NCBI GenBank assembly: GCA_020847355.1
Contig: JADLCG010000055.1
Location: 1-35,857, forward strand
DNA length: 35,857 nt
Direction: 5' to 3'
Source: Anaerolineales bacterium
GTDB lineage: Bacteria > Chloroflexota > Anaerolineae > Anaerolineales > Villigracilaceae
How positions within the stretch are numbered: position 1 is the first letter of the stretch; the number at the start of each line of letters is the position of its first letter. This document shows positions 521 through 29,387 of this stretch, one piece after another. Position numbers and translations under genes: made by a program. Under the pieces are notes generated by a model. It was not told the DNA's origin. It searched no databases and saw nothing but the letters and a program-made list of their open reading frames with translations.

Positions 521-538
521 ATTTCCTTGGAGGCAAAT

Positions 539-1156
539 ATGTTCCCTGGCGATTCGCAATTCCAAGAGCTATTGCTAAATTACTCGCAAGAAACCGATTC
601 GGCGCGCCGCAAGAAACTAGAAGAAAAAATCTGGAAATCTTACGGCACTGAAAACACCGTTTTAGTTTTAGATATGTCGGGGTTTTCTCTGCTCACCCGC
701 AAATACGGAATCATTCACTACCTCTCTATGATTCGCAGGATGCAATTAACCGTCGAACCAATTATCGCCAGTCACGAAGGCAAAATCATCAAATTTGAAG
801 CCGACAATTGCTTTGCAATTTTGCCCAATCCGCTTTTAGCGGTGCGCGCCGCCATTACCATTCAGCACGCCTTTTACGCTTCCAACCTGCTCTCCGCAGA
901 CGAATTAGATATTCGCGTCGCCATCGGGATTGACTTCGGAAAAGTGCTCATCGTGAACGATCGCGATATGTTCGGCGAAGCCGTCAACCGCGCCTGCAAA
1001 TTAGGCGAAGACGTTGGCAATGCAAACGATATTCTAATTACAAAGGAAGCCATGGCGTTGATCCCAAAAGAAGCCGAAATTACCGGTCGCTTCATTGACA
1101 TCAGCATCGGAGGGTTGACAATTCCGGCTTACTCCGTATTTTACAAAACTGAGTAG
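539..1156 (+). CDS. Stand-alone class III adenylate/guanylate cyclase domain protein
   Basis: Motifs 'VLVLDMSGFS' (metal Asp), 'KFEADN' (Lys specifier and second Asp), 'RVAIGID.G' and 'DMFGEAVNRACKL'. Start moved to ATG 539 after the GGAGG RBS. Confidence 0.85.
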   Translation: MFPGDSQFQELLLNYSQETDSARRKKLEEKIWKSYGTENTVLVLDMSGFSLLTRKYGIIHYLSMIRRMQLTVEPIIASHEGKIIKFEADNCFAILPNPLLAVRAAITIQHAFYASNLLSADELDIRVAIGIDFGKVLIVNDRDMFGEAVNRACKLGEDVGNANDILITKEAMALIPKEAEITGRFIDISIGGLTIPAYSVFYKTE

Positions 1157-10085: not shown

Positions 10086-10167
10086 AAGATGTCCTCGATC
10101 AAGCTCGCTAGATTTTAGAGGGGTGAAAAAAATATTTTTGATTACCAGCGCCGATTAAATAAAAAGG

Positions 10168-10240
10168 CGCCCCAGGCAGGAGTCGAACCCACAACCTACT
10201 GATCCGAAGTCAGGCGCTCTATCCATTGAGCTACTGGGGC
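10168..10240 (-). tRNA. tRNA-Arg(UCG)
   Basis: Minus strand folds as a cloverleaf: GCCCCAG TA GCTC AATGGATA GAGC G CCTGA CT-TCG-GA TCAGT AGGTT GTGGG TTCGACT CCTGC CTGGGGC G. The Arg identity element A20 is present. CCA is not fully encoded (CC then T). Confidence 0.95.
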
Positions 10241-10350: not shown

Positions 10351-12660
10351 CTATTCCGACTTTTCTTCGTCTGCGTTATCGTCTTCCTCGCTCCGCGAGA
10401 GGTCAACAGTTGCGGCGCGCTTTTGCGCTAGCGCCCCTCTGACGACAAAGGCAATGATCGCCAAAATAATTACGCCGGAAGCAATGAGAAGCGGCATGAG
10501 CCAATCTGGCGGAGCGGTATTCAAAGCCGGGTTCGTTCCAGCCGGAAGCGGCGTAGTGACCACCGCCTCAGCGTCTGGCACAACATCGCCAACTGTGGAA
10601 AAGATTGCCTGATCGTCGCCTACGGCAACCTGCTTACCGTTCGTAATTGCAAACACGCCGGAGACCTGCGCGTTTATTTCGCTGACGAGTAAAGCGTCGC
10701 CAGAAAGCGCCAATCCATTCGCATCATTTCCGGAGAGGAGCAAGATCGTCTTGTCAATATTGAACGGCGAATGGAACAATTCAAGGTAGCCAACGCTGAC
10801 GCCCTGAGGGATGCGATACACAATTTGCAGTTGACGCTCGCTGGCGGTATCTGTAGCAAAATCAAAAGGCGCCGGCAGATTTTCGTTAATCTCATTCAGG
10901 ATGGGAAGCGTGCTCGCCTTGCCGATCATAATCATGGAATATTTCTCGCGGATTTCCGGCGAAACGTCATCGGCGAAAACCGTCCGCATTCCAGAAATGA
11001 TTGGGTTGGCAACTCTACCCAGTTCGTAAGCTAATTTACCGGCGATGCCCCAACCCGTTGTATCGGTCTTTGAAAGCACAAAAGCCAAATCGCCAAGGTC
11101 GCTTTGCGTTACGAAAAGTCCCGGGTAATTTTTCAAATCCATTGCGGAGTATTGAAATGCGCCAAGCGCATTCGCTTCGGGCAAATGCAGATTCGATTGA
11201 TCTGAGATGATCACCCATGGGTCGGAAAGTCCGGATTCGTCGCAAGAGGTGTCGGCGGAAAGTTGCCCGCTAATCGTCAGGCGATTTTCTCCATAGCGCA
11301 AAATGCCAAAAGGAATTTTGATGCGCACCGCTGTTAATTCTTCAGAGGCTTTATCCAAAGCTGTGCTATTGATCACCTGCCCATTCAATTCAATATTCAA
11401 GGAAGACAGCCCGTTATCTACCAGCGCAGAATGGTAATAGAGCAATTCAAAATAGCCGTCTCTAGTGAAAAGCTGTTGCTTAGAGACCATAAACGTGTAA
11501 TCTGCGGTTGAACGCCCGATGCCGCTAAGAGTCTCGGTCAGGTAGCCCAAGCTTTGGAAGGTGAAATTTTCAACGAAAGGAATGCTATCCATCAACGGCT
11601 GAACGTCTTTGACGTACGCGAGCGTCGGGTCTTGATAGATGAAAATTTTTCCAGAGCTAACCGCTTGAGAAGCCTTTTGAACCGCCGCCTCATCTTTTCC
11701 GCTCACTAACAGGATAGACTTTGCAGTATTCCACGGCGAAATTGCCAATTGAATCACGCCGTCTGTTGCAGAAGCCGGCGGAAGGTTCGGGAAATTGCCA
11801 GCCTCAACTTTTAGCGGTAGAGTGACGACATTCGACAAGAGCGGCAGTTTCTCTAGCGCGCCGACAAAAATAAAATTGCTCGTCGCCAGATCGTCATTCG
11901 TGACTCTGCTGGAGTTGATCAGCGAAAAATCAGCGGTACTGCCGACCATAGAACCAAAGCCAGCCATAATATTCAAGGCGGCTTGAAGTTCGCCGGCAGT
12001 TGGAGCGTCTGGCGTAACCACGAGAGTCCGTTCTGGCACAAGCGCGTTGGCTTGATAAAACGGCGCAGGCAAGCGCGATAAGTTCAAATCTGGCGGCGTG
12101 ACGCCATAAACCAAATTGAGGATCGAGGTGTCTTTGATGGTCACAACGGCGCGCACGTCATATTGACAGCTGAATTGAGCGTCTAAAGCGATTTTCAAAA
12201 CGTGGCGTCCGTCGCTGGTACTCGGCGTCAGCGCTTCGGGCGGGATTTGAAAACGAGCGGAATTGCTCCCAGTACTGCCCAGCGGGATTGTGCCAATAAT
12301 TTGATTATTAAAAGACACAACCAGCGAGCCGCCATAGGGGTTGCCCGCGCTAGCCAATTGCGCCAAGCCAGAACCAGTTAATAAAACGTCATAATCAATT
12401 TGAACATCGCCGCCAGCGGCTAATTTCCAGTTTGGGGGAATGCTAAAGAGTAAATGCGTCACGTCAAACGGGCTGTTTAATTCCGCTGGACGGAAACCTA
12501 ATTGCGCGAAGTTAAGCGAAACATTGTCGCTTGCGCCAACCTGCGTTGGCGCATTAATCTCCGCATAAAAGGTATCGCTCTTTGGCGCTTTCGCCGAAAC
12601 CTGAACAAAGTTACTCAAAATCAGAATCGGCAGAAAAATAAATGCGAGTATTTTTTTCAC
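10351..12660 (-). CDS. BcsB-like (cellulose synthase co-polymerase-like) extracytoplasmic protein with C-terminal membrane anchor
   Basis: Signal peptide from GTG 12660 (RBS GAGGTG). Two repeated units ('LNFAQLGF...FSIPPNW' and 'FTFQSLGY...'), each with a conserved Cys and followed by 'LSRLPAPF' or 'LKNYPGLF' and an 'SPWN/SPFN..K.ILL.SG.D' segment. C-terminal TM helix. This is the BcsB two-repeat architecture. Confidence 0.75.
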   Translation of the reverse strand: MKKILAFIFLPILILSNFVQVSAKAPKSDTFYAEINAPTQVGASDNVSLNFAQLGFRPAELNSPFDVTHLLFSIPPNWKLAAGGDVQIDYDVLLTGSGLAQLASAGNPYGGSLVVSFNNQIIGTIPLGSTGSNSARFQIPPEALTPSTSDGRHVLKIALDAQFSCQYDVRAVVTIKDTSILNLVYGVTPPDLNLSRLPAPFYQANALVPERTLVVTPDAPTAGELQAALNIMAGFGSMVGSTADFSLINSSRVTNDDLATSNFIFVGALEKLPLLSNVVTLPLKVEAGNFPNLPPASATDGVIQLAISPWNTAKSILLVSGKDEAAVQKASQAVSSGKIFIYQDPTLAYVKDVQPLMDSIPFVENFTFQSLGYLTETLSGIGRSTADYTFMVSKQQLFTRDGYFELLYYHSALVDNGLSSLNIELNGQVINSTALDKASEELTAVRIKIPFGILRYGENRLTISGQLSADTSCDESGLSDPWVIISDQSNLHLPEANALGAFQYSAMDLKNYPGLFVTQSDLGDLAFVLSKTDTTGWGIAGKLAYELGRVANPIISGMRTVFADDVSPEIREKYSMIMIGKASTLPILNEINENLPAPFDFATDTASERQLQIVYRIPQGVSVGYLELFHSPFNIDKTILLLSGNDANGLALSGDALLVSEINAQVSGVFAITNGKQVAVGDDQAIFSTVGDVVPDAEAVVTTPLPAGTNPALNTAPPDWLMPLLIASGVIILAIIAFVVRGALAQKRAATVDLSRSEEDDNADEEKSE

Positions 12661-12718
12661 GTTAAACACCTCAAATTCCTGAGTTATATCGAGAATCACT
12701 TAATAATAAAAAGTCTAA

Positions 12719-13831
12719 TTACCCAAAAGGTCGAACTTTATATAGGTTGATCTTAACGTCGGATTGCATCGAAATTTCCAGAGCCTGCTCAGCCTGATTG
12801 ACCAAAACCTGAAAGGACTCGCCGCCTTGATGATCGGCAAAGCCAATACGCGGATCGAGTTCAATATCAAATTCTCCGTCCGTATCCAAGGAAAAGCGCT
12901 GGGCTAAGATTTCTTGAATCCGCGACATTCTTTGCATAGCGGAATGTCCGTCCGTGGTGGGCAGAAGGACGCTAAACTTAAGTTGAGACCAGCGCCCTAC
13001 AATATCATTGCCGCGCAATTGATACTTCAGCGTGCTGGTCACTTTCTGCATGATCATATTCTTATACGCTTGCGGCAAAGAATCGTAAAATTCCTGAATG
13101 CCATTCAGATAAATGATGCCAATTGTGCGCACGTCATTCGGCTGATTGGCAATTTCTTGACGCACCAATCTTTCAAAATATGTTTTGGTATAAGCCAACG
13201 ATTCCGAATCGATCATCTTTCTTTGACCTAAGCTACCCAGCGAGCTAGATAATTGATCGCGGAAGATGGCGATGCCAACGCCAAGCCCCAAGCCGACGAT
13301 CAAAGCCAAACCGGCATTTTGCAACGGCTGAGGTTGGTACGGCTCTTCTGGCACAACGGCTTTATCCAGAAAGTCAATATCATAGATAACGTATAGCTTA
13401 CGCACAAAATCAATCGCATATTGACCAATGCCATTTGCCAACATCGCCGCCACTTCCGGGTCTGGACCTTTAACGCTAAATCGAATAATGTTCGCGTCCG
13501 GCAAAACGGTTACAGAGGTATCGTAAGCGCTAAACTTTTTCGGGTCCGCCGCAAGCAGTTGAATCGTACCGTTAATTACGTCGCGGCTGTTCAAAATTTC
13601 AGCGTAGGTCGAGATGATCGAACGCTTATCCAAAGCCTCAAGGCTATTGATTAGATCGCGGCTCTCGGTACTTTGTACGTTCGGGCTAACAATAAAACGC
13701 GCAACCGCCTCATACATAGGAGTTACAAAATAGTACGAATTGATCAAAGAGAGATTCAGCGCCAGCAAAGCTGAAATTGCGATAATCCACCAGCTACGCT
13801 GAAGAATACGAAAATAAAAACGAAGTTCCAT
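12719..13831 (-). CDS. Wzz/CpsC-type polysaccharide co-polymerase fused to a C-terminal degenerate GGDEF domain with RxxD I-site
   Basis: N-terminal 'RILQRSWWII..TM..TPMYEA' and the Pro-rich pre-TM2 motif 'DKAVVPEEPYQP..N..LALIVGLGLGVG' mark a PCP. A GGDEF-like region follows: 'IDSESLAYTKTYF', 'RGND-IVGRW-SQLKF-SVLLP', 'RIGFA', 'LVNQAEQAL'. Confidence 0.85.
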   Translation of the reverse strand: MELRFYFRILQRSWWIIAISALLALNLSLINSYYFVTPMYEAVARFIVSPNVQSTESRDLINSLEALDKRSIISTYAEILNSRDVINGTIQLLAADPKKFSAYDTSVTVLPDANIIRFSVKGPDPEVAAMLANGIGQYAIDFVRKLYVIYDIDFLDKAVVPEEPYQPQPLQNAGLALIVGLGLGVGIAIFRDQLSSSLGSLGQRKMIDSESLAYTKTYFERLVRQEIANQPNDVRTIGIIYLNGIQEFYDSLPQAYKNMIMQKVTSTLKYQLRGNDIVGRWSQLKFSVLLPTTDGHSAMQRMSRIQEILAQRFSLDTDGEFDIELDPRIGFADHQGGESFQVLVNQAEQALEISMQSDVKINLYKVRPFG

Positions 13832-13850
13832 AAAAGCTCCTAAGCCGAGA

Positions 13851-13896
13851 ATTATAGTGTTAGAATTTAGGGGTTAATCGAAATGATTATATCATT
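13851..13896. promoter_or_regulatory. Divergent promoter region: minus-strand TATAAT boxes (13851-13856, 13886-13891) and palindrome AATGAT-TAT-ATCATT (13882-13896)
   Basis: AT-rich 110-bp gap between the divergent wzz-GGDEF and GT2 genes. Confidence 0.45.
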
Positions 13897-13941
13897 CTCA
13901 AAAGACTATATATTTTAGTTACAGTACTAAAGGGCTACCGA

Positions 13942-15144
13942 ATGGAAACTGTCTCGCTTATTGTTGCGCTCTTGTTTTGGGGGTCTAGCGGCATTATTCT
14001 TTATGTATATCTTGGCTATCCAATCTTCATCGCGCTTCTTGCCAAGCTTCGCCCGCAAGCCGAAGCTTTTCCCGCATATTTACCAACAGTGACGTTATTG
14101 ATCGCCGCCTACAACGAAGAAACGGTAGTTGAATCCAAAATCAAGAATTCGCTCGCTATTGATTATCCACGCGAAAAATTTCAGATTCTCTTCGTCTCTG
14201 ACGGGTCTTCAGATGCCACGCCGCAGATCATTAAACGCTTTGAGAATCAAGGCGTTGAATTGTTGCATGAAGCGCAACGCAACGGGAAAATGGCGGCAAT
14301 TAACCGCGCCATGCCCAGCGTGCGCGGGGAAATCATCGTTTTCTCAGACGCCAATAATTATTATCAGCCGGATACAATCAAAAAGTTGGCGGCGCCTTTT
14401 CAAGATCCAAAAATCGGAGCGGTCAGCGGCGCAAAACTTATCGCGGATGGAGACGGCAGTCTCGGCGCATCCGAAGGCTTGTACTGGAAGTATGAGTCTT
14501 ACATCAAAAAGCAAGAAAGCCGTTTGGGTAGTTGCACCAGCGTGGCTGGGGAAATTTTCGCGCTGAGGAAAACGGCATATCTCAAACCGCCGGATAATAT
14601 TATCAACGATGATTTCTATCTGGGGATGCAAGTCATCCGCCAAGGATTGCGTTTGGTATATATTCCCGAAGCAAAATCCATAGAAAGAGTTTCGTTAACC
14701 GCGCAAGATGAAATTAAGCGCCGAATGCGGATCAACGCCGGGCGCTATCAGATTATCGCTAATGCCGAAAAAATCCTGCCTAAAAATCAACCGCTTTTAA
14801 TTTGGCAAATTATCTCGCATAAATTCCTGCGCCCCTTAGTCCCGTTTGGGATGATCTTAGCTTTGCTGGCGAATATCCTTGCGGTCGTTATTCCGTCTAC
14901 TAAAAACAATTTCTTTCTATTATCTAACCCCTTTGGCGAAATCATTTTAGGCTTACAAATTCTTTTTTATGGCTTAGCCTTTATTGGAACAGCCTTTCCT
15001 AAACTTGGCGAAAAATCTAAGATTATCAGGTTGCTCTATTTACCCGCCTTCCTGACAAACAGCAACCTAGCCGCGCTGAGGGGCTTCTTCCAATATCTAC
15101 GCGGACAACAATCCCATTTATGGGAACGCATTGAAAGGCGCTAA
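13942..15144 (+). CDS. GT2 glycosyltransferase, CESA-like (membrane-bound)
   Basis: N-terminal TM, 'IAAYNEE', 'SDGSSD', 'GKMAAIN', 'FSDAN', 'EGLYWKYE', 'NDDF', 'RRMRINAG' in place of QxxRW, 'SHKFLR' and C-terminal TMs. Confidence 0.92.
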   Translation: METVSLIVALLFWGSSGIILYVYLGYPIFIALLAKLRPQAEAFPAYLPTVTLLIAAYNEETVVESKIKNSLAIDYPREKFQILFVSDGSSDATPQIIKRFENQGVELLHEAQRNGKMAAINRAMPSVRGEIIVFSDANNYYQPDTIKKLAAPFQDPKIGAVSGAKLIADGDGSLGASEGLYWKYESYIKKQESRLGSCTSVAGEIFALRKTAYLKPPDNIINDDFYLGMQVIRQGLRLVYIPEAKSIERVSLTAQDEIKRRMRINAGRYQIIANAEKILPKNQPLLIWQIISHKFLRPLVPFGMILALLANILAVVIPSTKNNFFLLSNPFGEIILGLQILFYGLAFIGTAFPKLGEKSKIIRLLYLPAFLTNSNLAALRGFFQYLRGQQSHLWERIERR

Positions 15145-15165: not shown

Positions 15166-16317
15166 ATGGTATCCGATTTTGACGCTTTTCCAAAAGTATT
15201 ACTGGTTGATTTATCCCTGAAATATGGCGGGTCTACTTCGCGCGCGCTTTCTTTAATCCAAAATTCCCCGCGTGGCAAGATAGCGCTGGCTGGGCTAAAA
15301 AACGGAGCAATTACGCAAGAAGCGCTCAAACTCAATTTGCCGGTTCACATCGTGGGCAAGAACAAGCTAGATCCGCGCATTCTATTCAATCTAATCAAAC
15401 TCATTCGTCAAAATGGCTACCAAGCCCTCGATACGCAAAACATTCAATCGAAATTTTGGGGCAGTCTCGCCGCCTGCTTGACCAAGACGAGTCTGATCTC
15501 GACGATCAATAGTTGGTACGCAAACGAACATGGGCAAGCCTCCACCAAAGGCAAAATTTACACTGCGCTCGAGCTTTTGACCAATTTGAATTTGGATTTA
15601 TACATTACCGTATCCGAAAAAGATCGCAAAGCTTTGCTAAATGCCAAGATTGACGAAAAGCGCATTCGCCTGATTTATAATGCCGTAGATATCACGCCCG
15701 CCGCCATCTTCGGGGAGGCTGGGTGGCTAAAAGAAAAATTCAGCCTACCGACAGATTCAATAGTTTGCACAGCCGTAGGTCGGCTTGTTCCAGTTAAGGG
15801 GTATGATATCTTGATCGAAGCCATGCGGCAGGTTGCGCCAAAAATCCCTAATCTAGTTTGTTTATTGGTTGGGGCTGGCGAATGTCAGGAAGCGCTAGCA
15901 ACGCAAATCAAAGAAGCTAAACTCGAAACGCGCGTCTATTTAGCGGGTTATCAAGATCGAAACACGGCGCTCGCGATTCTGAAAGCTAGTTCTATCTTCG
16001 CCATGCCTTCCAGATATGAAGGCACGCCCATCGCGCTATTGGAAGCGGCGGCGCTCGGACTGCCCATCCTCGCCTCTGCCAGCGGCGGCATACCGGAACT
16101 GGTTACAGACGGCGAACACGCGCTACTGATTCCGCCCAACGACCCAGCCGCGCTCGCGGATGGTTTGCTCAAACTCTGCACAGACGCTCAATTTGCAAAG
16201 GCGCTTGGAAAAAACGCGCAAGCCCGCATACGCTCTCAATTCAACCTCAAAGCGCAAGTCGAAGCGACTTGGAACGCTTACCAAACTGCTTATCAGTATC
16301 ATTATCATATAGATTAA
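15166..16317 (+). CDS. GT4 glycosyltransferase
   Basis: 'VGRLVPVKGYD' and 'PSRYEGTPIALLEAAALGLP...GGIPELV' (EX7E). Confidence 0.93.
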   Translation: MVSDFDAFPKVLLVDLSLKYGGSTSRALSLIQNSPRGKIALAGLKNGAITQEALKLNLPVHIVGKNKLDPRILFNLIKLIRQNGYQALDTQNIQSKFWGSLAACLTKTSLISTINSWYANEHGQASTKGKIYTALELLTNLNLDLYITVSEKDRKALLNAKIDEKRIRLIYNAVDITPAAIFGEAGWLKEKFSLPTDSIVCTAVGRLVPVKGYDILIEAMRQVAPKIPNLVCLLVGAGECQEALATQIKEAKLETRVYLAGYQDRNTALAILKASSIFAMPSRYEGTPIALLEAAALGLPILASASGGIPELVTDGEHALLIPPNDPAALADGLLKLCTDAQFAKALGKNAQARIRSQFNLKAQVEATWNAYQTAYQYHYHID

Positions 16318-16331
16318 GGAAAAGAACATTT

Positions 16332-17369
16332 ATGGGAAGCGTAAAACTTTCGCAAAACTCGCCCCTAAAGCGCTTTATCAATTTTGCCTATCGTAAAGGC
16401 TGGTTCAATGTTGGCAGAGCGCTGTTTGCTAAATCCCTGACTGTGATCAACTATCATCGCATTAACGATCCGCATCAAGCTGGGTTTGATTCATTTTTAC
16501 CGAACGTCAGCGCGCACCCAAAAGATTTTGACTTGCAAATGGAATATCTGGCGCGTTGGTTTAATGTCGTCTCGCTCACAGACGTAACGAATTGGCTCCG
16601 CAACGGAAAAGACTTGCCGCCTTACGCCGCGCTCATCACGTTTGACGACGGCTATCTTGATAATTACACCGAGGCGTATCCCATTCTGCGCCGCCATAAC
16701 TTCCCTGCCGTAATTTTTCTAACGCATGGGCACATCGGCACAGACGCGCCATTTTATTGGGATCTGGCGGCTTATTGTTTTTATCACACGCAGACAGATG
16801 CAGTTCTCTTCCCTGATAACACAAATGAAAAATGGGCAAACGAAGCTCAAAGAAAGCTGATCAGCCAACGGTGGATTGAGGCGCTGAAAATCCTCCCGCA
16901 TACCGAAAAACTAAAATGGGTCGAAAAACTTCCAGAGCGGCTCAATGTATCCATCCCTCAAGGTTATTTCCAAAAATTGATGTTGAACTGGGATCAAGTG
17001 CGCGAGATGAGTCAAAATGGTATTGAGTTTGGCGGGCATACCTTGACGCACCCGATTCTGACGCGCGTTTCGCCGGAACAAGCCGAGAAAGAGATTCACG
17101 GCTCGAAGCTTGCAATTGAACGAGAGCTAGGGCAAGAAATTTCAGGCTTTGCTTATCCAAACGGCAGGCAAGCCGACGTGAATGCCGAGGTTGAGAAGCT
17201 CACGCAAAACGCCGGTTATCAAGCCGCCTTCACTTTGCAAAACGGACCGACTACGCTTCAAGAAGTAAGGCGGAATCCGTTTGCGATTCGCCGTATTTTT
17301 ATATCGCACCTGCATACGTTGCCGCGTTATGCTTTACTCACACACAGAATAAATCGTTATCGTAAGTGA
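16332..17369 (+). CDS. Polysaccharide deacetylase (CE4/NodB-like, with internal insertion)
   Basis: 'INYHRI', 'ITFDDGYLD', 'FGGHTLTHP' and 'FAYPNG'. Start placed at ATG 16332 after TAAGGA. Confidence 0.92.
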   Translation: MGSVKLSQNSPLKRFINFAYRKGWFNVGRALFAKSLTVINYHRINDPHQAGFDSFLPNVSAHPKDFDLQMEYLARWFNVVSLTDVTNWLRNGKDLPPYAALITFDDGYLDNYTEAYPILRRHNFPAVIFLTHGHIGTDAPFYWDLAAYCFYHTQTDAVLFPDNTNEKWANEAQRKLISQRWIEALKILPHTEKLKWVEKLPERLNVSIPQGYFQKLMLNWDQVREMSQNGIEFGGHTLTHPILTRVSPEQAEKEIHGSKLAIERELGQEISGFAYPNGRQADVNAEVEKLTQNAGYQAAFTLQNGPTTLQEVRRNPFAIRRIFISHLHTLPRYALLTHRINRYRK

Positions 17370-17380
17370 ACTCTAATGCC

Positions 17381-18619
17381 CTACAAGGTTTCATAAACGC
17401 CTGAAATTATTTCGGCTACTTTTTCCCAGCTAAATTTAGTGCGCGAAAGCAAGCGGGCATGTTCGCCCATCGCCTGGGCGAGTTTTGGATCTTGAAGCAA
17501 GGCGTTAATTTTCTGCGCCAAATCTTGCGGGTTTTGGGGCGCGGCTAAAAATCCGTTTTTGCCGTCCTCCACAGCTTCAGGCAAGCCGCCAATATTTGCG
17601 GCGACCACCGGCTTACCAAACGTATATGCTACCTGCAACGCCCCGCTTTGCGTACTGCTTCGATACGGATAAACCACAACGTCCGCAAGCGTCATAATCG
17701 GAGCGATCTCGGTAACGTCAATATAACGCGGGTCAAAAATTATCCGTTCGCTCAGTCCTAATTCTGTCACCCGCTCATAGAGGGCGTTCATGTCAATATA
17801 TTTCGTTGGGTATCCAACCACAAGCAATTTAGCGCCGCAAGTTTGAGGAAGCAAACCAAAGGCTTCAAGCAAATCTTCAATGCCTTTGCTCGGAGAGAGC
17901 AAGCCAAAGAACAAAATAACTTTATCCTGCTCGGTCAGCGCATATTTCTGGCGGAGATCCGCTTCAGCGCTTGGACTCTGCGGAAGTTGAAGAAGCCAGC
18001 CTTGATTGCCGTGCGGGATGAGATGCGTAGCCTTCACTGGAACTGCGGGAAAATGCGTAATAAATTTCTGACGGTTTTCTTCAGCGTGAAAAAATAGCGC
18101 GGAAAACTTGGCGTACATGGCTTCGTCAGAACCGAAAATGATCGTAGAAAGGACTTCATCTTTTCCCTCTCTGGCTTCAAATTCATGGCAAACCTGAGTT
18201 AGAACCAAATTATTTTTCTTCAAGCGCCTGATAAAGTAAGCTTCAAACTGAAATTGAATGCGGGAAAATTGCACAATCTCCGGTTTGACGCGCAATAAAT
18301 AAGCCGTCACTCGAAACCAAGTGAGGATCAGATAAACTCCGCGCAAGATTCGCAAACCCAAGCGCTTCACTCTCCGCCAAACAGATTTCAGCAATCCTTT
18401 TGAAGTTTCGCTATTTGACGAAGAGAAATTCTTCATCAAATAAAAATCTTTTTTCACCCGAAAATTATGCGGCAGGTTCGCCATTTCGTAATCCGAAGCG
18501 GTCAACAGAGTCACCTCGAAACCTGCATTTGCTAAAGCGGTGCAGAGTTGATAGGCATAATGAATCAACCCGCCAACGCTGTTCAATTCAATGACACAGA
18601 TATGTTTTTTATTTTTCAT
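17381..18619 (-). CDS. GT4 glycosyltransferase
   Basis: 'LFFGLLSPSKGIEDL' and 'YPYRSSTQSGALQVAYTFGKPVV...GGLPE'. Confidence 0.92.
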   Translation of the reverse strand: MKNKKHICVIELNSVGGLIHYAYQLCTALANAGFEVTLLTASDYEMANLPHNFRVKKDFYLMKNFSSSNSETSKGLLKSVWRRVKRLGLRILRGVYLILTWFRVTAYLLRVKPEIVQFSRIQFQFEAYFIRRLKKNNLVLTQVCHEFEAREGKDEVLSTIIFGSDEAMYAKFSALFFHAEENRQKFITHFPAVPVKATHLIPHGNQGWLLQLPQSPSAEADLRQKYALTEQDKVILFFGLLSPSKGIEDLLEAFGLLPQTCGAKLLVVGYPTKYIDMNALYERVTELGLSERIIFDPRYIDVTEIAPIMTLADVVVYPYRSSTQSGALQVAYTFGKPVVAANIGGLPEAVEDGKNGFLAAPQNPQDLAQKINALLQDPKLAQAMGEHARLLSRTKFSWEKVAEIISGVYETL

Positions 18620-19781
18620 GGCGGGTTATCAATTCCAGATAGAGTTTTTTCAATTGGTTAACTTGCCCGCGAACGTCAAATTTCTCATTAACGATTCTAA
18701 AACCGTCAAGCCCCATTGATTTCATCTCCTCAGGGTTAGCAAGCAGACTCAGGCAGGCTTTGGTCAATTCAACTGGGGAGCCCGGCGCAACCAAACGTCC
18801 ATTGACTCCATCCGCAAGCATTTCAGGGACGCCCCCCACGCGGCTGGCAACGATTGGCAAACGCGCCGCCATAGCCTCGGCTAAAACAGTCGGCAGGGCT
18901 TCGGTCAAAGTTGGCAAAATAAACAGATCGCTAGCGGCTAAAATCTGCGGAATATCGCTTCGCTGACCGGCAAAAATCACCTTTTCCTTTATCGGGCTAT
19001 TTGCGAGCCTTTTTTCAAGTTCAGGACGATACGCGCCATCGCCTACAATCAAATAGTAAGCGTTGGGATGCGCAGAAAAAATCTCAGGCAGGGCTTCCAG
19101 CATAAACTGAATTCCCTTTGGCTCGCGCAAGACCGCCACAGTTGTTAGCAGAATCGCATCGGGCGGTAGGCTGAACGCATTGCGAAGCGCCAAGCGTTCG
19201 CGCTGAAAATCCAAATTTGCGTAAGCCGAAAGGTCAATGCCGTTATAAATAACGCGCACATGATCGGGCGAAGTTTTACTCTCATTCAAATGGAATTGAC
19301 GCGCCTCTTCTGAGACGGAGATCACTTGATCGCAGAAATAGCGAAGCGCAGATAATTCCGTAAATTCATGCAGACGCGATTTGAAACTTCGATCGCTTGC
19401 CAGCATGGTATGAAGCGTAGTCACGCTGGGCAGGCGCAACAATTTCGCCGCAAAATTTCCGAGCGTGTCCGCAAATTCAAGCTGAGTATGCACAAGATCG
19501 GCGCGCGTTTTCTTCAGATACGCATAAAGGCGCGGAATTGCCGTCAGGTCCCGCAGGTAAGGAATCGGTAGAAAATCAACCGGGATGTCAATCGCTCGGA
19601 GTTGATCCGCGATTGGATTGCCCTGCCGCACTTGAAATGCGCAAACGCGGGGAGTAAAAATTTCCTGATCTAAATTCTTGAGGGTTGGAACCAGCAAACG
19701 CTCGGCGCCGCCCATGCCTAGCCCGTCAATTAGATAGCTAATATTATATTTTCGCTTGGGAGCATTGATAGTTGTTGACAC
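18609..19781 (-). CDS. GT4 glycosyltransferase
   Basis: 'GMGGAER', 'IYNGID', 'VAVLREPKG' and 'PTLTEALPTVLAEAMA...GGVPE'. Confidence 0.93.
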   Translation of the reverse strand: MSTTINAPKRKYNISYLIDGLGMGGAERLLVPTLKNLDQEIFTPRVCAFQVRQGNPIADQLRAIDIPVDFLPIPYLRDLTAIPRLYAYLKKTRADLVHTQLEFADTLGNFAAKLLRLPSVTTLHTMLASDRSFKSRLHEFTELSALRYFCDQVISVSEEARQFHLNESKTSPDHVRVIYNGIDLSAYANLDFQRERLALRNAFSLPPDAILLTTVAVLREPKGIQFMLEALPEIFSAHPNAYYLIVGDGAYRPELEKRLANSPIKEKVIFAGQRSDIPQILAASDLFILPTLTEALPTVLAEAMAARLPIVASRVGGVPEMLADGVNGRLVAPGSPVELTKACLSLLANPEEMKSMGLDGFRIVNEKFDVRGQVNQLKKLYLELITRHEK

Positions 19782-20995: not shown

Positions 20996-21007
20996 TAGAG
21001 TCGGCGT

Positions 21008-21661
21008 TTAGGCGGAAGAGTTCTTTGAGCTAGCGGTCGCAAAGTAAAAGGGAAAGAAATTAAGCAGAAAGGTCGCGAGAAAAGCGATAATCTGCGAATT
21101 CCGCGCCTTAAAGGGAAGTTTGTGCCGATAACGATGATCCAAGGCAAAGGCAGCCGCCTGCCGATTGAGCGGAAAGATGTATTCAGGCAAAGTCAAATTA
21201 GAGAGCGCGGCATATAAAACAATCTCGCAATAACCAGCCTGTTTCAGAGTCTTTTGAATTTGCATCGGCGTGGATAAATATTTTTGAGCAGGCGCCGCCT
21301 CCCAAAGCGTGTAGCGGTTCGAAAAAGCGAGGAGTATGCGGCCCTTTGGACGTAGTAATCTCGAAGCGGCGGCAAGCGCTTCAACTACGCGGTCAGAAAA
21401 AGAATCGGGGAAGCCCAAAGGTAGCGCGATAAAATCAAAATTTGCCGAAGCGTTGCGTAGCTCCTGCTCAAACTCCGGGAAATCCATAGCTTGCGCTGAA
21501 AATTTCAGCGTATTAAAAAACTGGGCAACATCCCCCAATTCGCGCCCAACGATTATCCCCTTGCTATTCTCCGAAAGCGGCAGTAAAAAACGCCAATCTG
21601 CGCTATGCTCGATGGGCAATTCACTGGCAAGAAAATCGGGGCGGTTTTGATTCTGCATCAA
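21008..21661 (-). CDS. Methyltransferase-fold protein, probably degenerate
   Basis: 'ADWRFLLP', weak motif I 'GIIVGRELG', 'NFDFIAL', 'SRLLRPKGRILLAFSNR' and 'TLKQAGY'. ATGA overlap with wzx. Confidence 0.55.
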   Translation of the reverse strand: MMQNQNRPDFLASELPIEHSADWRFLLPLSENSKGIIVGRELGDVAQFFNTLKFSAQAMDFPEFEQELRNASANFDFIALPLGFPDSFSDRVVEALAAASRLLRPKGRILLAFSNRYTLWEAAPAQKYLSTPMQIQKTLKQAGYCEIVLYAALSNLTLPEYIFPLNRQAAAFALDHRYRHKLPFKARNSQIIAFLATFLLNFFPFYFATASSKNSSA

Positions 21662-23154
21662 GCCTGTACATTCTGTTTAGCGCCGCTCACCATGCGGATA
21701 AGGCGCAAGAGATTGTCGCGTTCAAGCCGCCACAAAACCGCGAGATAGCTGATAGCGCCAGCGGCAACCACGCTAATCAATTGAACGATCGGCGCGGCGT
21801 TCGCCGTAAGTTTTAACGCCAGCAATGCAAATGGAACCATCACCACGCCCGCCAAGAACGCCGGCTTTAGCTCTTTCAAAATATCAGCAATCTTGATTTG
21901 GACGTATTTTGTCGCCAGCGTTAGGCTCGTGGCTCTTCTAACTAGCACCGCAAATAAATGCCCCCAGGCGATGCCAATTAATCCGAAGTGTGAGCCAATC
22001 CAAATTGAAGGGACGATCACAATCACCGTCAGAACGGTTAGCCACAGCAGGATGTCCGGTCGTCCAATGGCTTTATAGACATCGCCAATGTGATAGCCAA
22101 CAGAATAAACCCAAGCGTAAATCGCCAGAACGCGCAAAACGGGGATCGCCTCCAGCCACTGATCGCCAAAAACCACGCGCACGATAGGATCGGCGGCAAG
22201 AAACAACCCCAAGGCGATTGGAACCGCAATTAGTTGAATGAGGCGAATCGCCGCCAAAACGCCGCGCCGCATTTCCGCAGGTTTATCCTGAATTGAGGAA
22301 AATGCGGGGAACGTAACGCTCCCCATCACCCACAAATTCCCGATCAGCAACATCTCCGGTAAACGATAAGCCAGCGTGTATATACTTAATTCAGCCATGC
22401 CAAAAACTCTACCGACAATGATGTAATCTATGTTGTCAATGATCACGCCTAAAAAATCGCTAACCGTCACAGACGAGCCGAACTTCATCAACGATTTAAT
22501 TAATGCAAGGTCCAAACTTAAGCGCGGGCGCCAAGCGACAACGATCCAAACTAAAATTACCGAAGTAACAGCGCCCAAGATTTGCCCAAAAACTAAAGCC
22601 CAAACGCCATAACCGGCATACGCCAAGCCGATCGAAGCGACGCCCTTGACAATCGTATTTCCCATGTCTGGGATAAACTTGCGCCGATAGTCAAGGTCTT
22701 TCATCAACAAAATCACATGGACTGCGCCGAGCGCATTGATCGCAAAAGAAGTTCCAAGCCAACGCAGAACCGGAATAATTCTAGGTTCGTGAAAGTAATC
22801 TGCAAAGAATGGCGCTACTGGAATCACGAGCGCGGACAAGGTGAACCCAATAATCAGGTTGACGGTAAAAACAATATTCGCCACTTCATTGACATTCTCG
22901 CGGCGTTGAATGAGCGCGAGCCCCAGCCCTAAATCTTTGACCAGCGAAAGATAGCTGATTGCCACAATCGCAATCGAGAGCAAGCCGAAGTCGTCTTTCG
23001 TGAGGATGCGCGCCAAAATAGCGGTGGTGACTAAAACCGCCCCTTTACCCAAGCCGTAAGTTAGGAAATTCCAAATAACGCCGCGCCCAGCTTTGCGGGT
23101 AACATGAGCGCCGGAAGTCGTCTCTTCAACGGCAATAATTGGATTATCGTTCAA
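21658..23154 (-). CDS. wzx: Wzx-type flippase (MOP superfamily, WzxC-like)
   Basis: 'ILARILTKDDFGL', 'DLGLGLALIQ', 'GYGVWALVFGQ', 'NIDYIIVGR', 'YTLAY' and many TMs. Likely start is TTG 23154 after GGGAGA; the ORF extends to 23211. Confidence 0.9.
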   Translation of the reverse strand: MNDNPIIAVEETTSGAHVTRKAGRGVIWNFLTYGLGKGAVLVTTAILARILTKDDFGLLSIAIVAISYLSLVKDLGLGLALIQRRENVNEVANIVFTVNLIIGFTLSALVIPVAPFFADYFHEPRIIPVLRWLGTSFAINALGAVHVILLMKDLDYRRKFIPDMGNTIVKGVASIGLAYAGYGVWALVFGQILGAVTSVILVWIVVAWRPRLSLDLALIKSLMKFGSSVTVSDFLGVIIDNIDYIIVGRVFGMAELSIYTLAYRLPEMLLIGNLWVMGSVTFPAFSSIQDKPAEMRRGVLAAIRLIQLIAVPIALGLFLAADPIVRVVFGDQWLEAIPVLRVLAIYAWVYSVGYHIGDVYKAIGRPDILLWLTVLTVIVIVPSIWIGSHFGLIGIAWGHLFAVLVRRATSLTLATKYVQIKIADILKELKPAFLAGVVMVPFALLALKLTANAAPIVQLISVVAAGAISYLAVLWRLERDNLLRLIRMVSGAKQNVQA

Positions 23155-24643
23155 GAGACGTCTCCCGAGATGAAAAACGGGAGAGACCTGTACCCGATTG
23201 AAGTTCATCAACCAATTGAATCAGCGTAATTCCCAAAGCGACTAAGATCCAAAAATAACGGATGTAAGCGTTGTGCAAAAAGACAGCGGCAATCATATAA
23301 GCGATAATTGAAACGCGAAGTGAATTGATCCACGGCAGTAAAGAGATATGCCGAGGCATCAAATGAACCGTCCGCGCCGCCCGCGCCAGCCCAGCCATAA
23401 GCGCTAACACCAATCCAAAAAACGAGACTGCGCCAAAGACTCCCGTCTCCGCCAACACTTGCGTATATAACGAGTGCGCGTCTCTTTCTTCCGAACGCAT
23501 CTCAAGCCCAATCTTCTGCGCATATTCCTGATAATTATTGCGAAAGTTCCCCGCCCCCACGCCCAACAATGGATGATCGGCAAACATCATCACGCCGGCA
23601 ATCACCTCGCTCGCCCGCCCACGAAACGAAGAATCCTCATACACGCTCACGCCGCCTTCAGAACTCGGCGCAAGCGATAATAAACTTTCAAAACGCTCAA
23701 GGTACGCCGGAGGGAGCAAGGGAATAAAAATCGTAGCCAGCCCCAAGATACCAATCGCCACCAGCGGATTAAGTTTCCGATCGAAAACAAAGAGCGTTAG
23801 GATCATACTGACGACAAACGCTAGATACCCGCCGCGGCTATAAGTATTCAACAACTCGAAGCCGATAATCCCAAACGCGGCAATTGCGTAAAGCTTGGTC
23901 AACATGCGCGGCTGATTGAAGATCTGGAAAGCGATCAGCGGCAAAATAGCCACCAAAACTTCAGCCCACATATTCGGGTCGCGTATTGGTCCGCCAATGC
24001 GATTCGTCGAAGAATTATCGCCCTCCACCACGCTTTGCGTTTTAATCCGCGCCATGCCGAAGAAATCTTGCGAATAATCTCCGGTGAAAATTTGATAAGC
24101 GCCGAACAAACATAACACAGTTGTAATGAAGACGATGATCCAAACCGCCTGTTTCCAAGTGGAAGTTTCTCGAATGGCGAACAAAATTGTATAAAGAATA
24201 AAAATATCCTTCGCCAAATCCTGAATCGCTTCCATCGTTCGATCTTTATCCGAAGCGACCGCATAAGAAGCCAGCATGGAAACAAAATAGAGGATCAAAA
24301 ACAACTCAACGACAAAGGTGCGCGTGCGGTTCTTCGGCAACTGCCCGGTATAATAATTCCGAACCATGATCGCCGCAAAGACCACCACCACCAAAGGCTT
24401 GATGATGCTTGGGTATCCGCGATTGGTCAGTTCCGCCGAGATGTTGATAAAGATCGTAATAATCAGGATGTTCGCGCCAATATTGGGCTTGATGATGATC
24501 ATCATCACCATCACAATCCCTAATACTCCCGCCAAGCCGTACAAGCCCACGCTGGTATCCGGGTCTGCCAAGGCGAAAGAAGCCGCGCCGACAAAAAACA
24601 AGCTGAATACTAAAAAGATCAAATCATTATTTTTGAGAGTCAT
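23144..24643 (-). CDS. O-antigen ligase/Wzy polymerase family membrane protein
   Basis: 'RIGGPIRDPN', 'TYSRGG', 'SSFRGR', 'HPLLGVGAGNF', 'AHSLYTQVLAETGVFG' and about 12 TMs. Confidence 0.88.
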   Translation of the reverse strand: MTLKNNDLIFLVFSLFFVGAASFALADPDTSVGLYGLAGVLGIVMVMMIIIKPNIGANILIITIFINISAELTNRGYPSIIKPLVVVVFAAIMVRNYYTGQLPKNRTRTFVVELFLILYFVSMLASYAVASDKDRTMEAIQDLAKDIFILYTILFAIRETSTWKQAVWIIVFITTVLCLFGAYQIFTGDYSQDFFGMARIKTQSVVEGDNSSTNRIGGPIRDPNMWAEVLVAILPLIAFQIFNQPRMLTKLYAIAAFGIIGFELLNTYSRGGYLAFVVSMILTLFVFDRKLNPLVAIGILGLATIFIPLLPPAYLERFESLLSLAPSSEGGVSVYEDSSFRGRASEVIAGVMMFADHPLLGVGAGNFRNNYQEYAQKIGLEMRSEERDAHSLYTQVLAETGVFGAVSFFGLVLALMAGLARAARTVHLMPRHISLLPWINSLRVSIIAYMIAAVFLHNAYIRYFWILVALGITLIQLVDELQSGTGLSRFSSRETSLER

Positions 24644-24664
24644 TTTTTCTCGTTTCTACCAAAG

Positions 24665-25762: not shown

Positions 25763-25776
25763 ATGCGTTCAACTTC

Positions 25777-26991: not shown

Positions 26992-27024
26992 AACAATTTC
27001 TCTGCATTATCGGCAAAATGAATC

Positions 27025-27765: not shown

Positions 27766-27784
27766 TTAGTTTAGGGGATCAAAA

Positions 27785-28459
27785 TCAATGCGCGCCGCGC
27801 TGTTGAAAAACAGCCATCACGGTTTTATATAAGATCACAATATCCAGCCAAATGCAGGCGTGATCAATGTAAGCGATATCCAGGCGCAAGCGGTCGTCAA
27901 ACTCCAACTGCGCCCGCCCGACGATTTGCCACAAGCCGGTCAAGCCGGGCGGCACATCCAGCCGCTCCGTATGCCAAAGTTTATAAGTTTCCGCTCCAAA
28001 AGAAGTTGGGCGGGGACCTACCAAACTCATTTGACCTTTTAAGATATTAATCAGTTGGGGAAGTTCATCCAAACTGGTCTTGCGTAAGAAGCCGCCAATT
28101 TTAGTGATGCGCGGATCATTGGTGATTTTGAAATCGGGCCATTGCAATTCGTTCAAATGCGCGTATTTCTGTTTTAACTCTTCCGCGTTCGGCACCATTG
28201 TGCGAAATTTGTAAATCACAAAGCGCTTCCCGCCTTTGCCAGTACGCAGTTGATGAAAAACCGCCGGAGCGCCGGGGGATGTAATTTCAATGATCGCCCA
28301 GACTACAACAATCACAGCCAGCCAAAGCGGGGCGCTGACGATAACCAAAATCAAATCCATTGCCCGTTTTAATTTTAAATAAGTTTGACCCGTAAAAATT
28401 CGCTTTTCCGGGTCAAAATCTGCCAACCAATCCGTAACATTGTTCTGATTAAGTTCCAT
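27785..28459 (-). CDS. Priming phosphoglycosyltransferase (bacterial sugar transferase, small monotopic type)
   Basis: 'KRAMDL', 'KFRTM', 'DPRITKIGGFLRKTSLDELPQL', 'GQMSLVGPRP' and 'PGLTGLWQ'. Confidence 0.95.
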   Translation of the reverse strand: MELNQNNVTDWLADFDPEKRIFTGQTYLKLKRAMDLILVIVSAPLWLAVIVVVWAIIEITSPGAPAVFHQLRTGKGGKRFVIYKFRTMVPNAEELKQKYAHLNELQWPDFKITNDPRITKIGGFLRKTSLDELPQLINILKGQMSLVGPRPTSFGAETYKLWHTERLDVPPGLTGLWQIVGRAQLEFDDRLRLDIAYIDHACIWLDIVILYKTVMAVFQQRGAH

Positions 28460-28464
28460 TTTCT

Positions 28465-29331
28465 TCAGGCGACGCTTTCATGCGACTGCGCCTCTTGGGC
28501 AAGCTGAATATTTTTCTGAGGAGTACGCGAGCGCTCGCGCGCCGTGTGTAACAGATCTTCAAAATTCAAGGCTTCATCCGGAAAAGCGGAAACGCCACAA
28601 ACGACCTTGAAGCTAGTCTTCTCCGCCAAAATTGAGCAAACTCTCTCAGCCAAGAGCATAGCTCGCTCCAAGGGAGTCTCTGGACAAAGAATCAAAAAAT
28701 GCCCTCTGCGATCCTGCATTAACACATCTGTTTGGCGCATAACTTCATTTAAAACCTGCCCCACCCGAGCGGCTGATAAACGCGCCATCATATCGCGTTG
28801 TAAAGTTTTCAAAACGTCTTTTGAAGACTGGTCATCATGCGGAGAAGTGACTACAACCACCAGCGAAAGCGGACGATGATAGCGCCGGCTACGGCTAAAT
28901 TCAGTTTTGATGATGTCTGAAGCTTCGTCCAATTTAATAGAATCGTGCGGGAAGGTGCCTTGCGCCAAAGCGTCCATCATCGATTCGGAATGATCTATCG
29001 CCACCGCCAATTGATACGCCAGCCAAACGCCAATTTCCAAAAGCACAAACTCCAAAAGCACAACCGCGACATCGTCAGTGGCGGTGTTTAAGCGATTGAC
29101 CATTTGAAAGAGCGCGAAGTAAACCGCGCCAAAGAAAATGCTCGGCACATAAATCGGCGCTTTATGCAGGGCCGGAATAAAAACCATAATTGGAATAATC
29201 AAGATGGCGAAAATATAGAAATAAGACGCAAAATTGATAATGGGACGGTCGGCGCTATCCAACTGCCCTAAAACCAAAATAAGCAACAAGTAAAACGATA
29301 CCAAGAATAATGATTTTCTGAAATTAGTCAT
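28465..29331 (-). CDS. 4-TM membrane protein with degenerate GGDEF domain and RxxD I-site (PelD-like c-di-GMP receptor candidate)
   Basis: Four hydrophobic helices, then 'EFSRSRRYHRPLSLVVV', 'RQTD-VLMQD-RRGHF-LILCPET', 'LAERV' and 'GVSAFPDEA...DLL..A'. Start placed at ATG 29331. Confidence 0.82.
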   Translation of the reverse strand: MTNFRKSLFLVSFYLLLILVLGQLDSADRPIINFASYFYIFAILIIPIMVFIPALHKAPIYVPSIFFGAVYFALFQMVNRLNTATDDVAVVLLEFVLLEIGVWLAYQLAVAIDHSESMMDALAQGTFPHDSIKLDEASDIIKTEFSRSRRYHRPLSLVVVVTSPHDDQSSKDVLKTLQRDMMARLSAARVGQVLNEVMRQTDVLMQDRRGHFLILCPETPLERAMLLAERVCSILAEKTSFKVVCGVSAFPDEALNFEDLLHTARERSRTPQKNIQLAQEAQSHESVA

Positions 29332-29353
29332 GTTTGCATTCCAATAATGAGAA

Positions 29354-29387
29354 AGACCTTGCAAAAATATAAGGTCTCTAAATTATA
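29354..29387 (-). promoter_or_regulatory. Candidate EPS operon promoter (-10 TATAAT at 29382-29387) followed by palindrome AGACCTT-N10-AAGGTCT
   Basis: Read directly from the sequence. The palindrome (29354-29377) overlaps the expected transcription start. Confidence 0.5.

What the first reader, a model, noticed from the sequence alone, without database searches (positions are those of the whole stretch)
12719..13831. Polysaccharide co-polymerase (Wzz/CpsC-type) fused to a degenerate GGDEF domain instead of a tyrosine kinase
Seen: residues ~1-195 have the two-TM PCP layout (PxYEA after TM1, Pro-rich motif before a Gly-rich TM2). The cytoplasmic tail, where Wzc carries its Walker-A kinase, is GGDEF-like. 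It reads RGND-IVGRW-SQLKF, aligning with PleD RAID-LPCRY-GGEEF. The catalytic signature is lost and the I-site is kept. Inference: c-di-GMP binding could control PCP oligomer state, and so polymerisation or chain length, replacing the phosphorylation cycle.
Basis: partly seen in the sequence, partly recalled or inferred. Interest (0 to 1): 0.85.

Follow-up and report, generated by a model that had tools for sequence, protein, structure and literature searches.

The report
Polysaccharide co-polymerase with dead cyclase tail
A Chloroflexota membrane protein of the family that sets polysaccharide chain length carries, where the textbook protein has a tyrosine kinase, a catalytically degenerate copy of the c-di-GMP-making domain that keeps the signal's binding residues, so it likely lets this biofilm signal act directly on a Wzx/Wzy sugar-polymer machine, though binding is untested.

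Summary
Confirmed. Window 12719-13831 (minus strand, 370 aa) is a two-helix CpsC-like polysaccharide co-polymerase fused to a GGDEF-fold domain (predicted model vs PleD Z 22.8, vs Wzc Z 13.4). It defines a Chloroflexota family (18 of 301 sampled genomes, including Herpetosiphon proteins) in kinase-free Wzx/Wzy clusters with a GT2, a BcsB-like gene and a second, YdaK/PssE-like dead GGDEF protein. Catalytic residues are lost; R273/D276 align on DgcR's mutated I-site and are kept in 120 of 120 close and 75 of 94 distant homologues. Against a sensor role: active cyclases keep RxxD as often (40 of 49), structural residues are kept equally well, and the cross-linking arginine is missing in this clade. 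'Replacing the kinase' is not shown: sister clusters have a tail-less co-polymerase and no kinase either. Best reading: c-di-GMP-gated co-polymerase (0.45); rivals are a ligand-free scaffold or control of the GT2/BcsB module. Nine literature searches found no description. This scan noted the same architecture before on other genomes (Chloroflexota; also a Clostridia form I did not test).

The parts
12719..13831 (-). Co-polymerase-GGDEF* fusion gene, 370 aa (P0001)
13247..13831 (-). PCP part, residues 1-195: TM1 (13-31), short extracytoplasmic domain, Pro-rich motif, Gly-rich TM2 (172-190); CpsC/CapA-sized
   Evidence: Pfam Wzz and GNVR, TIGR01006 E 8.3e-19 under cut-off, Wzc Z 13.4 and WzzE Z 10.4, hydropathy
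12731..13231 (-). Degenerate GGDEF domain, residues 201-367
   Evidence: PleD Z 22.8, rmsd 2.0; Foldseek 3ign E 5.9e-11; catalytic positions lost
13004..13015 (-). I-site RxxD (R273-G-N-D276)
   Evidence: in register with DgcR RKSD/AKSA; 120 of 120, 75 of 94
12974..12988 (-). Degenerate signature SQLKF (residues 282-286) in place of GG(D/E)EF
12920..12922 (-). R304, third primary I-site residue (PleD R390 position)
   Evidence: 113 of 120, 55 of 94; role of R390 from PMC7288161 passage; position mapping inferred
10351..12699 (-). BcsB-like protein, 782 aa, 19 bp downstream
   Evidence: Pfam BcsB E 2.2e-53; next gene in 42 of 55 loci
13942..15144 (+). GT2 with membrane helices, PgaC/IcaA-like
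   Evidence: present in 43 of 55 loci
15166..16317 (+). GT4 glycosyltransferase
16269..17369 (+). Polysaccharide deacetylase
   Evidence: 36 of 55 loci
17381..19781 (-). Two GT4 glycosyltransferases
21658..23211 (-). Wzx flippase
23144..24643 (-). Wzy_C-family polymerase or ligase
   Evidence: PF04932 E 7.1e-21; directly follows the fusion in 9 of 55 loci
27785..28459 (-). Priming phosphoglycosyltransferase
   Evidence: PF02397 E 2.8e-60
28465..29364 (-). Four-TM protein with a second degenerate GGDEF domain (RQTD I-site), YdaK/PssE-like
   Evidence: Pfam GGDEF E 1.9e-05 over cut-off; 4 hydrophobic helices; RxxD plus third Arg in 15 of 15 homologues

Best explanation
This is a membrane-anchored polysaccharide co-polymerase fused to a GGDEF-fold domain that has lost its catalytic residues, and it likely acts as a c-di-GMP receptor that would switch the cluster's Wzx/Wzy polymer assembly on or tune it. 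Shown: two-domain anatomy, loss of metal- and GTP-binding residues, retention of the three primary I-site residues, fixed place in a kinase-free Wzx/Wzy cluster, and c-di-GMP enzymes in the same genome. Inferred steps: (1) the PCP part oligomerises and works with the Wzy-family protein as PCP proteins do; (2) a c-di-GMP dimer binds R273/D276/R304; (3) because the domain hangs on the helix that continues TM2 (model helix 169-204), binding would change how neighbouring cytoplasmic domains pack, and so the state of the ring and its hold on the polymerase; (4) the cluster's four-TM GGDEF* protein would be a second c-di-GMP input and could supply the cross-linking arginine that this clade lacks. 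Historically the tail was most likely added to a co-polymerase that already lacked a cluster-encoded kinase, rather than swapped for one.
For: Fold and domains. Catalytic positions kept in 47-49 of 49 intact cyclases but in few group-A fusions (of 68: D241 9, K246 8, N249 3, H254 3, D258 4, G283 1, E285 0, K355 4), while R273 55, D276 64 and R304 46 of 68 stay; all three together 41 of 68 vs 29 of 49 in intact cyclases. D276 is the best-conserved residue of the domain, 88 of 94. Register with a mutated I-site. Only Wzz-domain protein of the genome; 0 of 7 TIGR01007 matches over cut-off; 7 of 18 fusion genomes have no kinase over cut-off and the 18 kinase matches in the other 11 all lie on other contigs or over 0.6 Mb away. 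Genome has 7 of 14 GGDEF matches with an intact signature and 3 HD_5 matches. Precedent: dead-GGDEF I-site receptors PssE (Kd 0.79 uM; PMC4125290) and YdaK (R202A, D205A abolish EPS; PMC5422440) sit in EPS operons and are required.
Against: RxxD is no more frequent than in intact cyclases of the same phylum (75 of 94 vs 40 of 49), and non-ligand structural residues are kept as well (D208 81, P291 79, G330 79, R280 68 of 94), so retention may be structural. Other degenerate GGDEF domains of these genomes often keep RxxD too. R273 and R304 co-occur only weakly (Fisher p 0.069, kin not independent). In group B only 6 of 26 keep all three residues. Position 229, my inferred match to the cross-linking PleD R313, is N in P0001 and Arg in only 17 of 68 group-A members. 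A better-conserved receptor candidate lies in the same cluster (15 of 15). No binding or activity was measured.
Confidence: 0.45

Rival explanations
1. The GGDEF-fold tail does not bind c-di-GMP; it is a scaffold that oligomerises the co-polymerase or docks cytoplasmic glycosyltransferases, and sensing is done by the four-TM GGDEF* protein.
For: RxxD at background frequency; family-specific conservation on the former active-site face (L252-P253-Q254-x-Y256, G279, W281 invariant in 120 close homologues; P253 58 and W281 64 of 94); group B mostly lacks R304 (9 of 26); the four-TM protein keeps RxxD+R in 15 of 15 and is present also in clusters whose PCP has no tail. An earlier scan note reports a Clostridia fusion without the motif (not tested here).
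Against: Three surface-charged I-site residues survive together in 41 of 68 sequences whose catalytic residues decayed, and are near-invariant in the close clade.
Confidence: 0.28
2. The tail binds c-di-GMP, but its target is a Pss/Yda-like GT2 plus BcsB-like module rather than Wzy; the PCP part serves as its membrane anchor and chain guide.
For: BcsB-like gene is the next gene in 42 of 55 loci and GT2 is present in 43 of 55; Listeria pssC (GT2), pssD (BcsB ortholog) and pssE (I-site receptor) form such a module (PMC4125290).
Against: In the unrearranged operons the fusion directly precedes Wzy and Wzx (9 of 55 loci; L113, L115); group-B fusions in L116-L118 and L120 sit with Wzx/PGT and no BcsB or GT2 match in the stretches read, and BcsB was not found with this query in G090 and G183.
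Confidence: 0.19
3. The pathway makes a protein-linked or wall-linked glycan, with the Wzy_C protein acting as a ligase, so the fusion would gate glycosylation rather than chain length.
For: The Wzy_C protein's best NCBIfam match is a putative O-glycosylation ligase model (TIGR03097, E 1.6e-23, under cut-off); no OPX exporter in the genome.
Against: A PCP has its known role with a polymerase; deacetylase and BcsB-like genes point to a polymer; lack of OPX is expected in a monoderm (own knowledge).
Confidence: 0.05
4. The domain is an active diguanylate cyclase, as database names say.
For: Passes Pfam and TIGR00254 cut-offs; sources name homologues 'diguanylate cyclase'.
Against: None of 94 distant or 120 close homologues has GG(D/E)EF; metal ligand D241 and the N-D-x-x-G-H motif are lost.
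Confidence: 0.03

Closest known systems
PCP-2b co-polymerases (CpsC, CapA, YveK/EpsA type) and PCP-2a Wzc
   Same: Two-TM layout, Pro-rich motif before Gly-rich TM2, Wzc-like fold of residues 2-196, Wzx/Wzy/PGT context; small extracytoplasmic domain like CpsC (TIGR01006 best PCP model).
   Different: PCP-2 proteins are defined by a fused or partner tyrosine kinase with Walker motifs and a Tyr cluster, plus a phosphatase (PMC12220298 passages). Here there is no Walker A, no Tyr cluster, no kinase in the cluster; the cytoplasmic module has a GGDEF fold.
PssE (Listeria), YdaK (Bacillus subtilis), PelD (Pseudomonas): membrane-anchored dead-GGDEF I-site receptors
   Same: Degenerate signature with RxxD five residues upstream, membrane anchor, inside an EPS cluster with a GT2; Pss also has a BcsB ortholog.
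   Different: Those are anchored by plain TM helices and act on synthase-type systems; here the anchor is itself a PCP in a Wzx/Wzy cluster. The cluster's other gene (28465-29364) is the closer match to YdaK/PssE. Binding is measured for them, not here.
Alg44 and BcsE (c-di-GMP-sensing subunits of synthase-dependent systems)
   Same: A co-polymerase-side subunit that senses c-di-GMP (Alg44 PilZ; BcsE REC-GGDEF*; PMC8892547 passages).
   Different: Synthase-dependent pathways; Alg44 uses PilZ, BcsE is cytosolic; neither is a Wzz-family PCP.

Membership tests
PCP superfamily (Wzz/CpsC/Wzc) | TM1 and TM2 flanking an extracytoplasmic domain; Pro-rich/Gly-rich TM2 region | tested here: met
PCP superfamily (Wzz/CpsC/Wzc) | Encoded with Wzx/Wzy pathway genes | tested here: met
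   window 21658-28459; loci
PCP superfamily (Wzz/CpsC/Wzc) | Oligomerises and controls polymerisation or chain length | not testable with these tools
   needs experiment
PCP-2a (Wzc) | Fused kinase with Walker A/A'/B and Tyr cluster | tested here: not met
   no Walker A, one Tyr in last 30 residues; tail is GGDEF fold
PCP-2b (CpsC/CapA) | Separate cognate BY-kinase (CpsD/CapB) in the cluster | tested here: not met
   none in the window; no match over cut-off in the 90.8% complete genome; pattern scan of L001-L058 found no kinase-like ORF
PCP-2b (CpsC/CapA) | TIGR01006 curated cut-off | tested here: not met
   67.9 bits vs 296
GGDEF domain (fold) | GGDEF fold and Pfam PF00990 cut-off | tested here: met
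   39.7 bits vs 23.8; Z 22.8 to PleD
Active diguanylate cyclase | GG(D/E)EF, metal-binding Asp, N-D-x-x-G-H substrate motif | tested here: not met
I-site c-di-GMP receptor (PelD/PssE/YdaK type) | RxxD five residues before the degenerate signature, plus R390-like Arg | tested here: met
   R273, D276, R304
I-site c-di-GMP receptor (PelD/PssE/YdaK type) | Second-site Arg from a neighbouring domain (PleD R313 type) | tested here: inconclusive
   position 229 is N here, Arg in 17 of 68 group A and 26 of 26 group B; R224 invariant in the close clade only; mapping of R313 to 229 rests on my recall of PleD
I-site c-di-GMP receptor (PelD/PssE/YdaK type) | Measured c-di-GMP binding needed for polymer synthesis | not testable with these tools
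   no assay possible

The most novel reading that the evidence does not exclude
A fourth kind of polysaccharide co-polymerase: a Wzz-family ring whose assembly is switched by c-di-GMP cross-linking of fused GGDEF* domains instead of by tyrosine phosphorylation, giving the first direct second-messenger control of a Wzx/Wzy polymerase complex, within a Chloroflexota cluster that joins Wzx/Wzy genes to a Pss/Yda-like GT2, BcsB-like and four-TM I-site module.
Probability: 0.3. Interest if true: 0.85.

Novelty: new variant of a known kind. Interest (0 to 1): 0.63.

Why it matters
Reviews read here divide EPS control into c-di-GMP for synthase systems and phosphorylation of PCP-2 proteins for Wzy systems, and state that how PCP oligomer state signals to Wzy is unclear (PMC12220298 passages). 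A natural PCP whose cytoplasmic switch is a small-ligand site would break that division and would offer a titratable handle on the open question: add ligand, watch the ring and the chain length. Cultured Herpetosiphon species carry the protein, so it can be tested, and the host lineage (Anaerolineales) is common in sludge and wastewater records.

Tried and rejected
Complex prediction of two GGDEF* domains (190-370) with four c-di-GMP riding along: no answer, score 0.01, no evidence either way. Search for longer forms (731-2085 aa): none of 116 hits carried both Wzz and GGDEF; weak evidence only. Origin by duplication of the four-TM GGDEF*: BLAST 26% over 78 aa, E 0.001; quick tree (careful search unfinished; 48 of 95 fused, 25 of 49 intact, 15 TM rows) kept the three groups apart with support 84, 90, 100, unrooted, so not shown. 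Tree of PCP parts (52 rows): GGDEF-fused rows one group (85), kinase-fused rows another (93), base unresolved; my automatic labels were wrong for some rows (L199, L204, and weak hits in L199/L200/L202), so a kinase-for-GGDEF swap is neither shown nor excluded. RNA-library contigs from 4 studies cover parts of the gene, but no silent control was laid, so transcription is not shown. Promoter/terminator scan near chance (9 vs 5.7+-2.8). Rfam: only a tRNA, no c-di-GMP riboswitch in the window. Structure job for the BcsB-like protein had not finished after five collections. No EAL and no OPX match in the 90.8% complete genome. L031 and L035 are labelled Saccharibacteria and Planctomycetota but are 62-64% identical to the query; I took them as possible binning errors and did not count them as spread. 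epsSMASH preprint main text has no GGDEF, c-di-GMP or Chloroflex- term; its supplements are closed and could list such clusters.

Full report
Observation. The finding's coordinates hold one minus-strand ORF of 370 aa. Pfam gives Wzz at 2-91 (E 4.1e-12), GNVR at 152-191 (under cut-off) and GGDEF at 215-352 (E 5.4e-10, over cut-off); NCBIfam's best co-polymerase model is the CpsC-type TIGR01006 (E 8.3e-19, far under its cut-off). Hydropathy shows helices at 13-31 and 172-190; there is no Walker A and no tyrosine cluster. An AlphaFold2 model from 120 aligned sequences (mean pLDDT 83.5, pTM 0.49, so the relative placing of the two domains is unsure) matches PleD at Z 22.8 (rmsd 2.0, 164 residues, 201-367) and Wzc at Z 13.4 (2-196), KpsE 12.6, WzzE 10.4. 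The model's TM2 helix runs on to residue 204, straight into the D208 that opens the GGDEF domain.

Family. A sequence search gave 419 hits; all 120 listed carry both Pfam domains and the named ones are Anaerolineae/Chloroflexota. A profile search of 50%-identity representatives listed 150 hits, of which I took 94 that span both domains (22-42% identity to P0001). In a phylum sample 18 of 301 genomes had a full-length match, in three families (8, 7 and 3 genomes). The protein of L091 clusters with proteins named from Herpetosiphon giganteus, H. llansteffanensis, H. geysericola and UniProt A9B577_HERA2. The ESM Atlas has three clusters of 54-76 members with this architecture, commonest phylum Chloroflexota.

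The domain is catalytically degenerate. I aligned the 94 fused domains with 49 distinct intact GGDEF domains drawn by motif from 72 Chloroflexota loci and 15 four-TM GGDEF* domains. Positions kept in 47-49 of 49 intact enzymes are mostly gone: in group A (68 sequences, P0001's group) D241 9, K246 8, N249 3, H254 3, D258 4, G282 9, G283 1, E285 0, K355 4; group B (26) is alike. No member has GG(D/E)EF.

The I-site. The primary I-site is RxxD plus one arginine (PleD R359, D362, R390), with a fourth arginine (R313) from the neighbouring domain (PMC7288161, passage). The family's RxxD column aligns on DgcR RKSD and on AKSA in the DgcR I-site-mutant structures, so the register is right. R273, D276 and R304 are kept in 120, 120 and 113 of 120 close homologues (mean column identity 71%, 57 invariant columns) and in 76, 88 and 55 of 94 distant ones. 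All three together: 41 of 68 in group A, 6 of 26 in group B, 29 of 49 in intact cyclases, 15 of 15 in the four-TM proteins, several of which are near copies. So the site survived while catalysis decayed, but no better than in active enzymes or than structural residues (D208 81, P291 79, G330 79 of 94); other degenerate domains in these genomes often keep RxxD as well. The position I map to R313 (229; mapping from recall of PleD) is Asn in P0001, Arg in 17 of 68 group A, 26 of 26 group B and 13 of 15 four-TM proteins; the close clade has instead an invariant R224. The former active-site face carries its own conserved patch (LPQxY 252-256, G279, W281), which suggests a protein contact whatever the ligand does. 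This evidence is compatible with c-di-GMP binding and does not prove it.

Context. The window holds a four-TM dead-GGDEF gene, priming transferase, Wzy_C protein, Wzx, three GT4, deacetylase, GT2 and a BcsB-like gene 19 bp behind the fusion. Of 58 loci fetched my ORF caller recovered the fusion in 55; within the DNA held (up to 10 kb a side, often cut by contig ends) BcsB-like occurs in 48, GT2 43, deacetylase 36, Wzx 34, Wzy 26, priming transferase 12, four-TM GGDEF* 9; the next gene is BcsB-like in 42 and Wzy in 9. More distant members show one co-directional order: four-TM GGDEF*, PGT, GT4, fusion, Wzy, Wzx, GT4s, GT2, BcsB-like, deacetylase (L044, L113-L115, L119). Group-B fusions sit in other Wzx clusters with sulfotransferases and no BcsB match in the stretches read (L116-L118, L120).

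Kinase question. P0001 is the only Wzz-domain match in its genome, and none of 7 TIGR01007 matches passes cut-off (genome 90.8% complete). Of 17 other fusion genomes 11 have a BY-kinase, always on another contig or over 0.6 Mb away. But homologous clusters in L127/L197, L128/L198 and L209 (proteins named from Kallotenue and Roseiflexus) have a 230-232 aa PCP with no tail, keep the four-TM GGDEF*, and show no kinase in the stretches read, although those genomes have kinases elsewhere. The simplest history is that the cluster was kinase-free and c-di-GMP-linked first, and the PCP gained a GGDEF* tail; the trees do not settle this. The genome has 7 of 14 GGDEF matches with intact signature and 3 HD_5 matches (GYP motif not checked), so the signal is likely made and degraded.

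Mechanism. I commit to a c-di-GMP-gated co-polymerase (0.45): ligand binding at R273/D276/R304 would alter packing of the cytoplasmic domains under the PCP ring and pass through the TM2 helix to the Wzy-family partner. Every step after the anatomy is inferred. Rivals: ligand-free scaffold with sensing by the four-TM protein (0.28); ligand binding that drives the GT2/BcsB-like module as in Listeria Pss (0.19); glycosylation rather than polymer (0.05); active cyclase (0.03).

Known systems and novelty. It is a PCP by fold and context but fails the kinase tests for PCP-2a and PCP-2b as described in PMC12220298 (passages). It resembles PssE (PMC4125290, passages), YdaK (PMC5422440, passages), PelD, BcsE and Alg44 (PMC8892547, passages) as a candidate c-di-GMP input to EPS synthesis, but those act in synthase systems. 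Nine searches (listings and abstracts seen, six papers read as passages, no supplements) found no description of a Wzz-GGDEF fusion; most subscription papers are outside that library. Databases annotate the members automatically as diguanylate cyclase or YveK family. Earlier notes of this scan record the same idea on other Chloroflexota genomes and a longer Clostridia form; they are not independent evidence and I did not test the Clostridia form. Verdict: real, conserved, apparently undescribed new variant of the PCP family; sensor function plausible but unproven; interest 0.63.

Noticed in passing
window 28465-29364 (-): Four-TM protein with a dead GGDEF domain; RxxD and third Arg in 15 of 15 homologues, with invariant S-R-R at the end of the first helix and an F-P-D-A-L-T-F motif; heads the operon even where the PCP has no tail. 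Probably the stronger c-di-GMP receptor candidate of the cluster.
   Followed up: partly
window 10351-12699 (-): BcsB-like protein with no BcsA in the cluster; next gene after the fusion in 42 of 55 loci; in G281 and G193 its homologue lies away from the cluster.
   Followed up: partly
window 10166-10240 (-): tRNA-Arg(TCG) directly behind the BcsB-like gene, at the cluster's edge.
   Followed up: no
window 24665-25762 (-): 365-aa secreted-looking protein before Wzy with no Pfam match; unnamed Atlas clusters at 0.92-0.95, mostly Chloroflexota.
   Followed up: partly
window 19961-21661 (-): APH-family phosphotransferase plus a 217-aa gene without Pfam match, conserved between Wzx and the GT4 genes in 23 loci (cluster 7); possible glycan-modifying pair.
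   Followed up: no
window 13832-13941: The fusion-BcsB pair and the GT2-GT4-deacetylase block are divergent here, whereas distant relatives have one co-directional operon: an inversion in this clade.
   Followed up: partly
L119 and L120 (G006): One genome carries two fusions, a group-A copy in the BcsB/GT2 cluster and a more distant copy in a sulfotransferase-bearing Wzx cluster.
   Followed up: partly
window 527-1156 (+): Stand-alone 209-aa adenylate/guanylate cyclase-like domain (PF00211, E 3.8e-05).
   Followed up: no
L069, L148, L150, L154, L189, L190, L192: Several Chloroflexota GGDEF-like domains with GGDDF/GGDNF signatures and no RxxD; by recall such motifs mark promiscuous cyclic dinucleotide synthases.
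   Followed up: no
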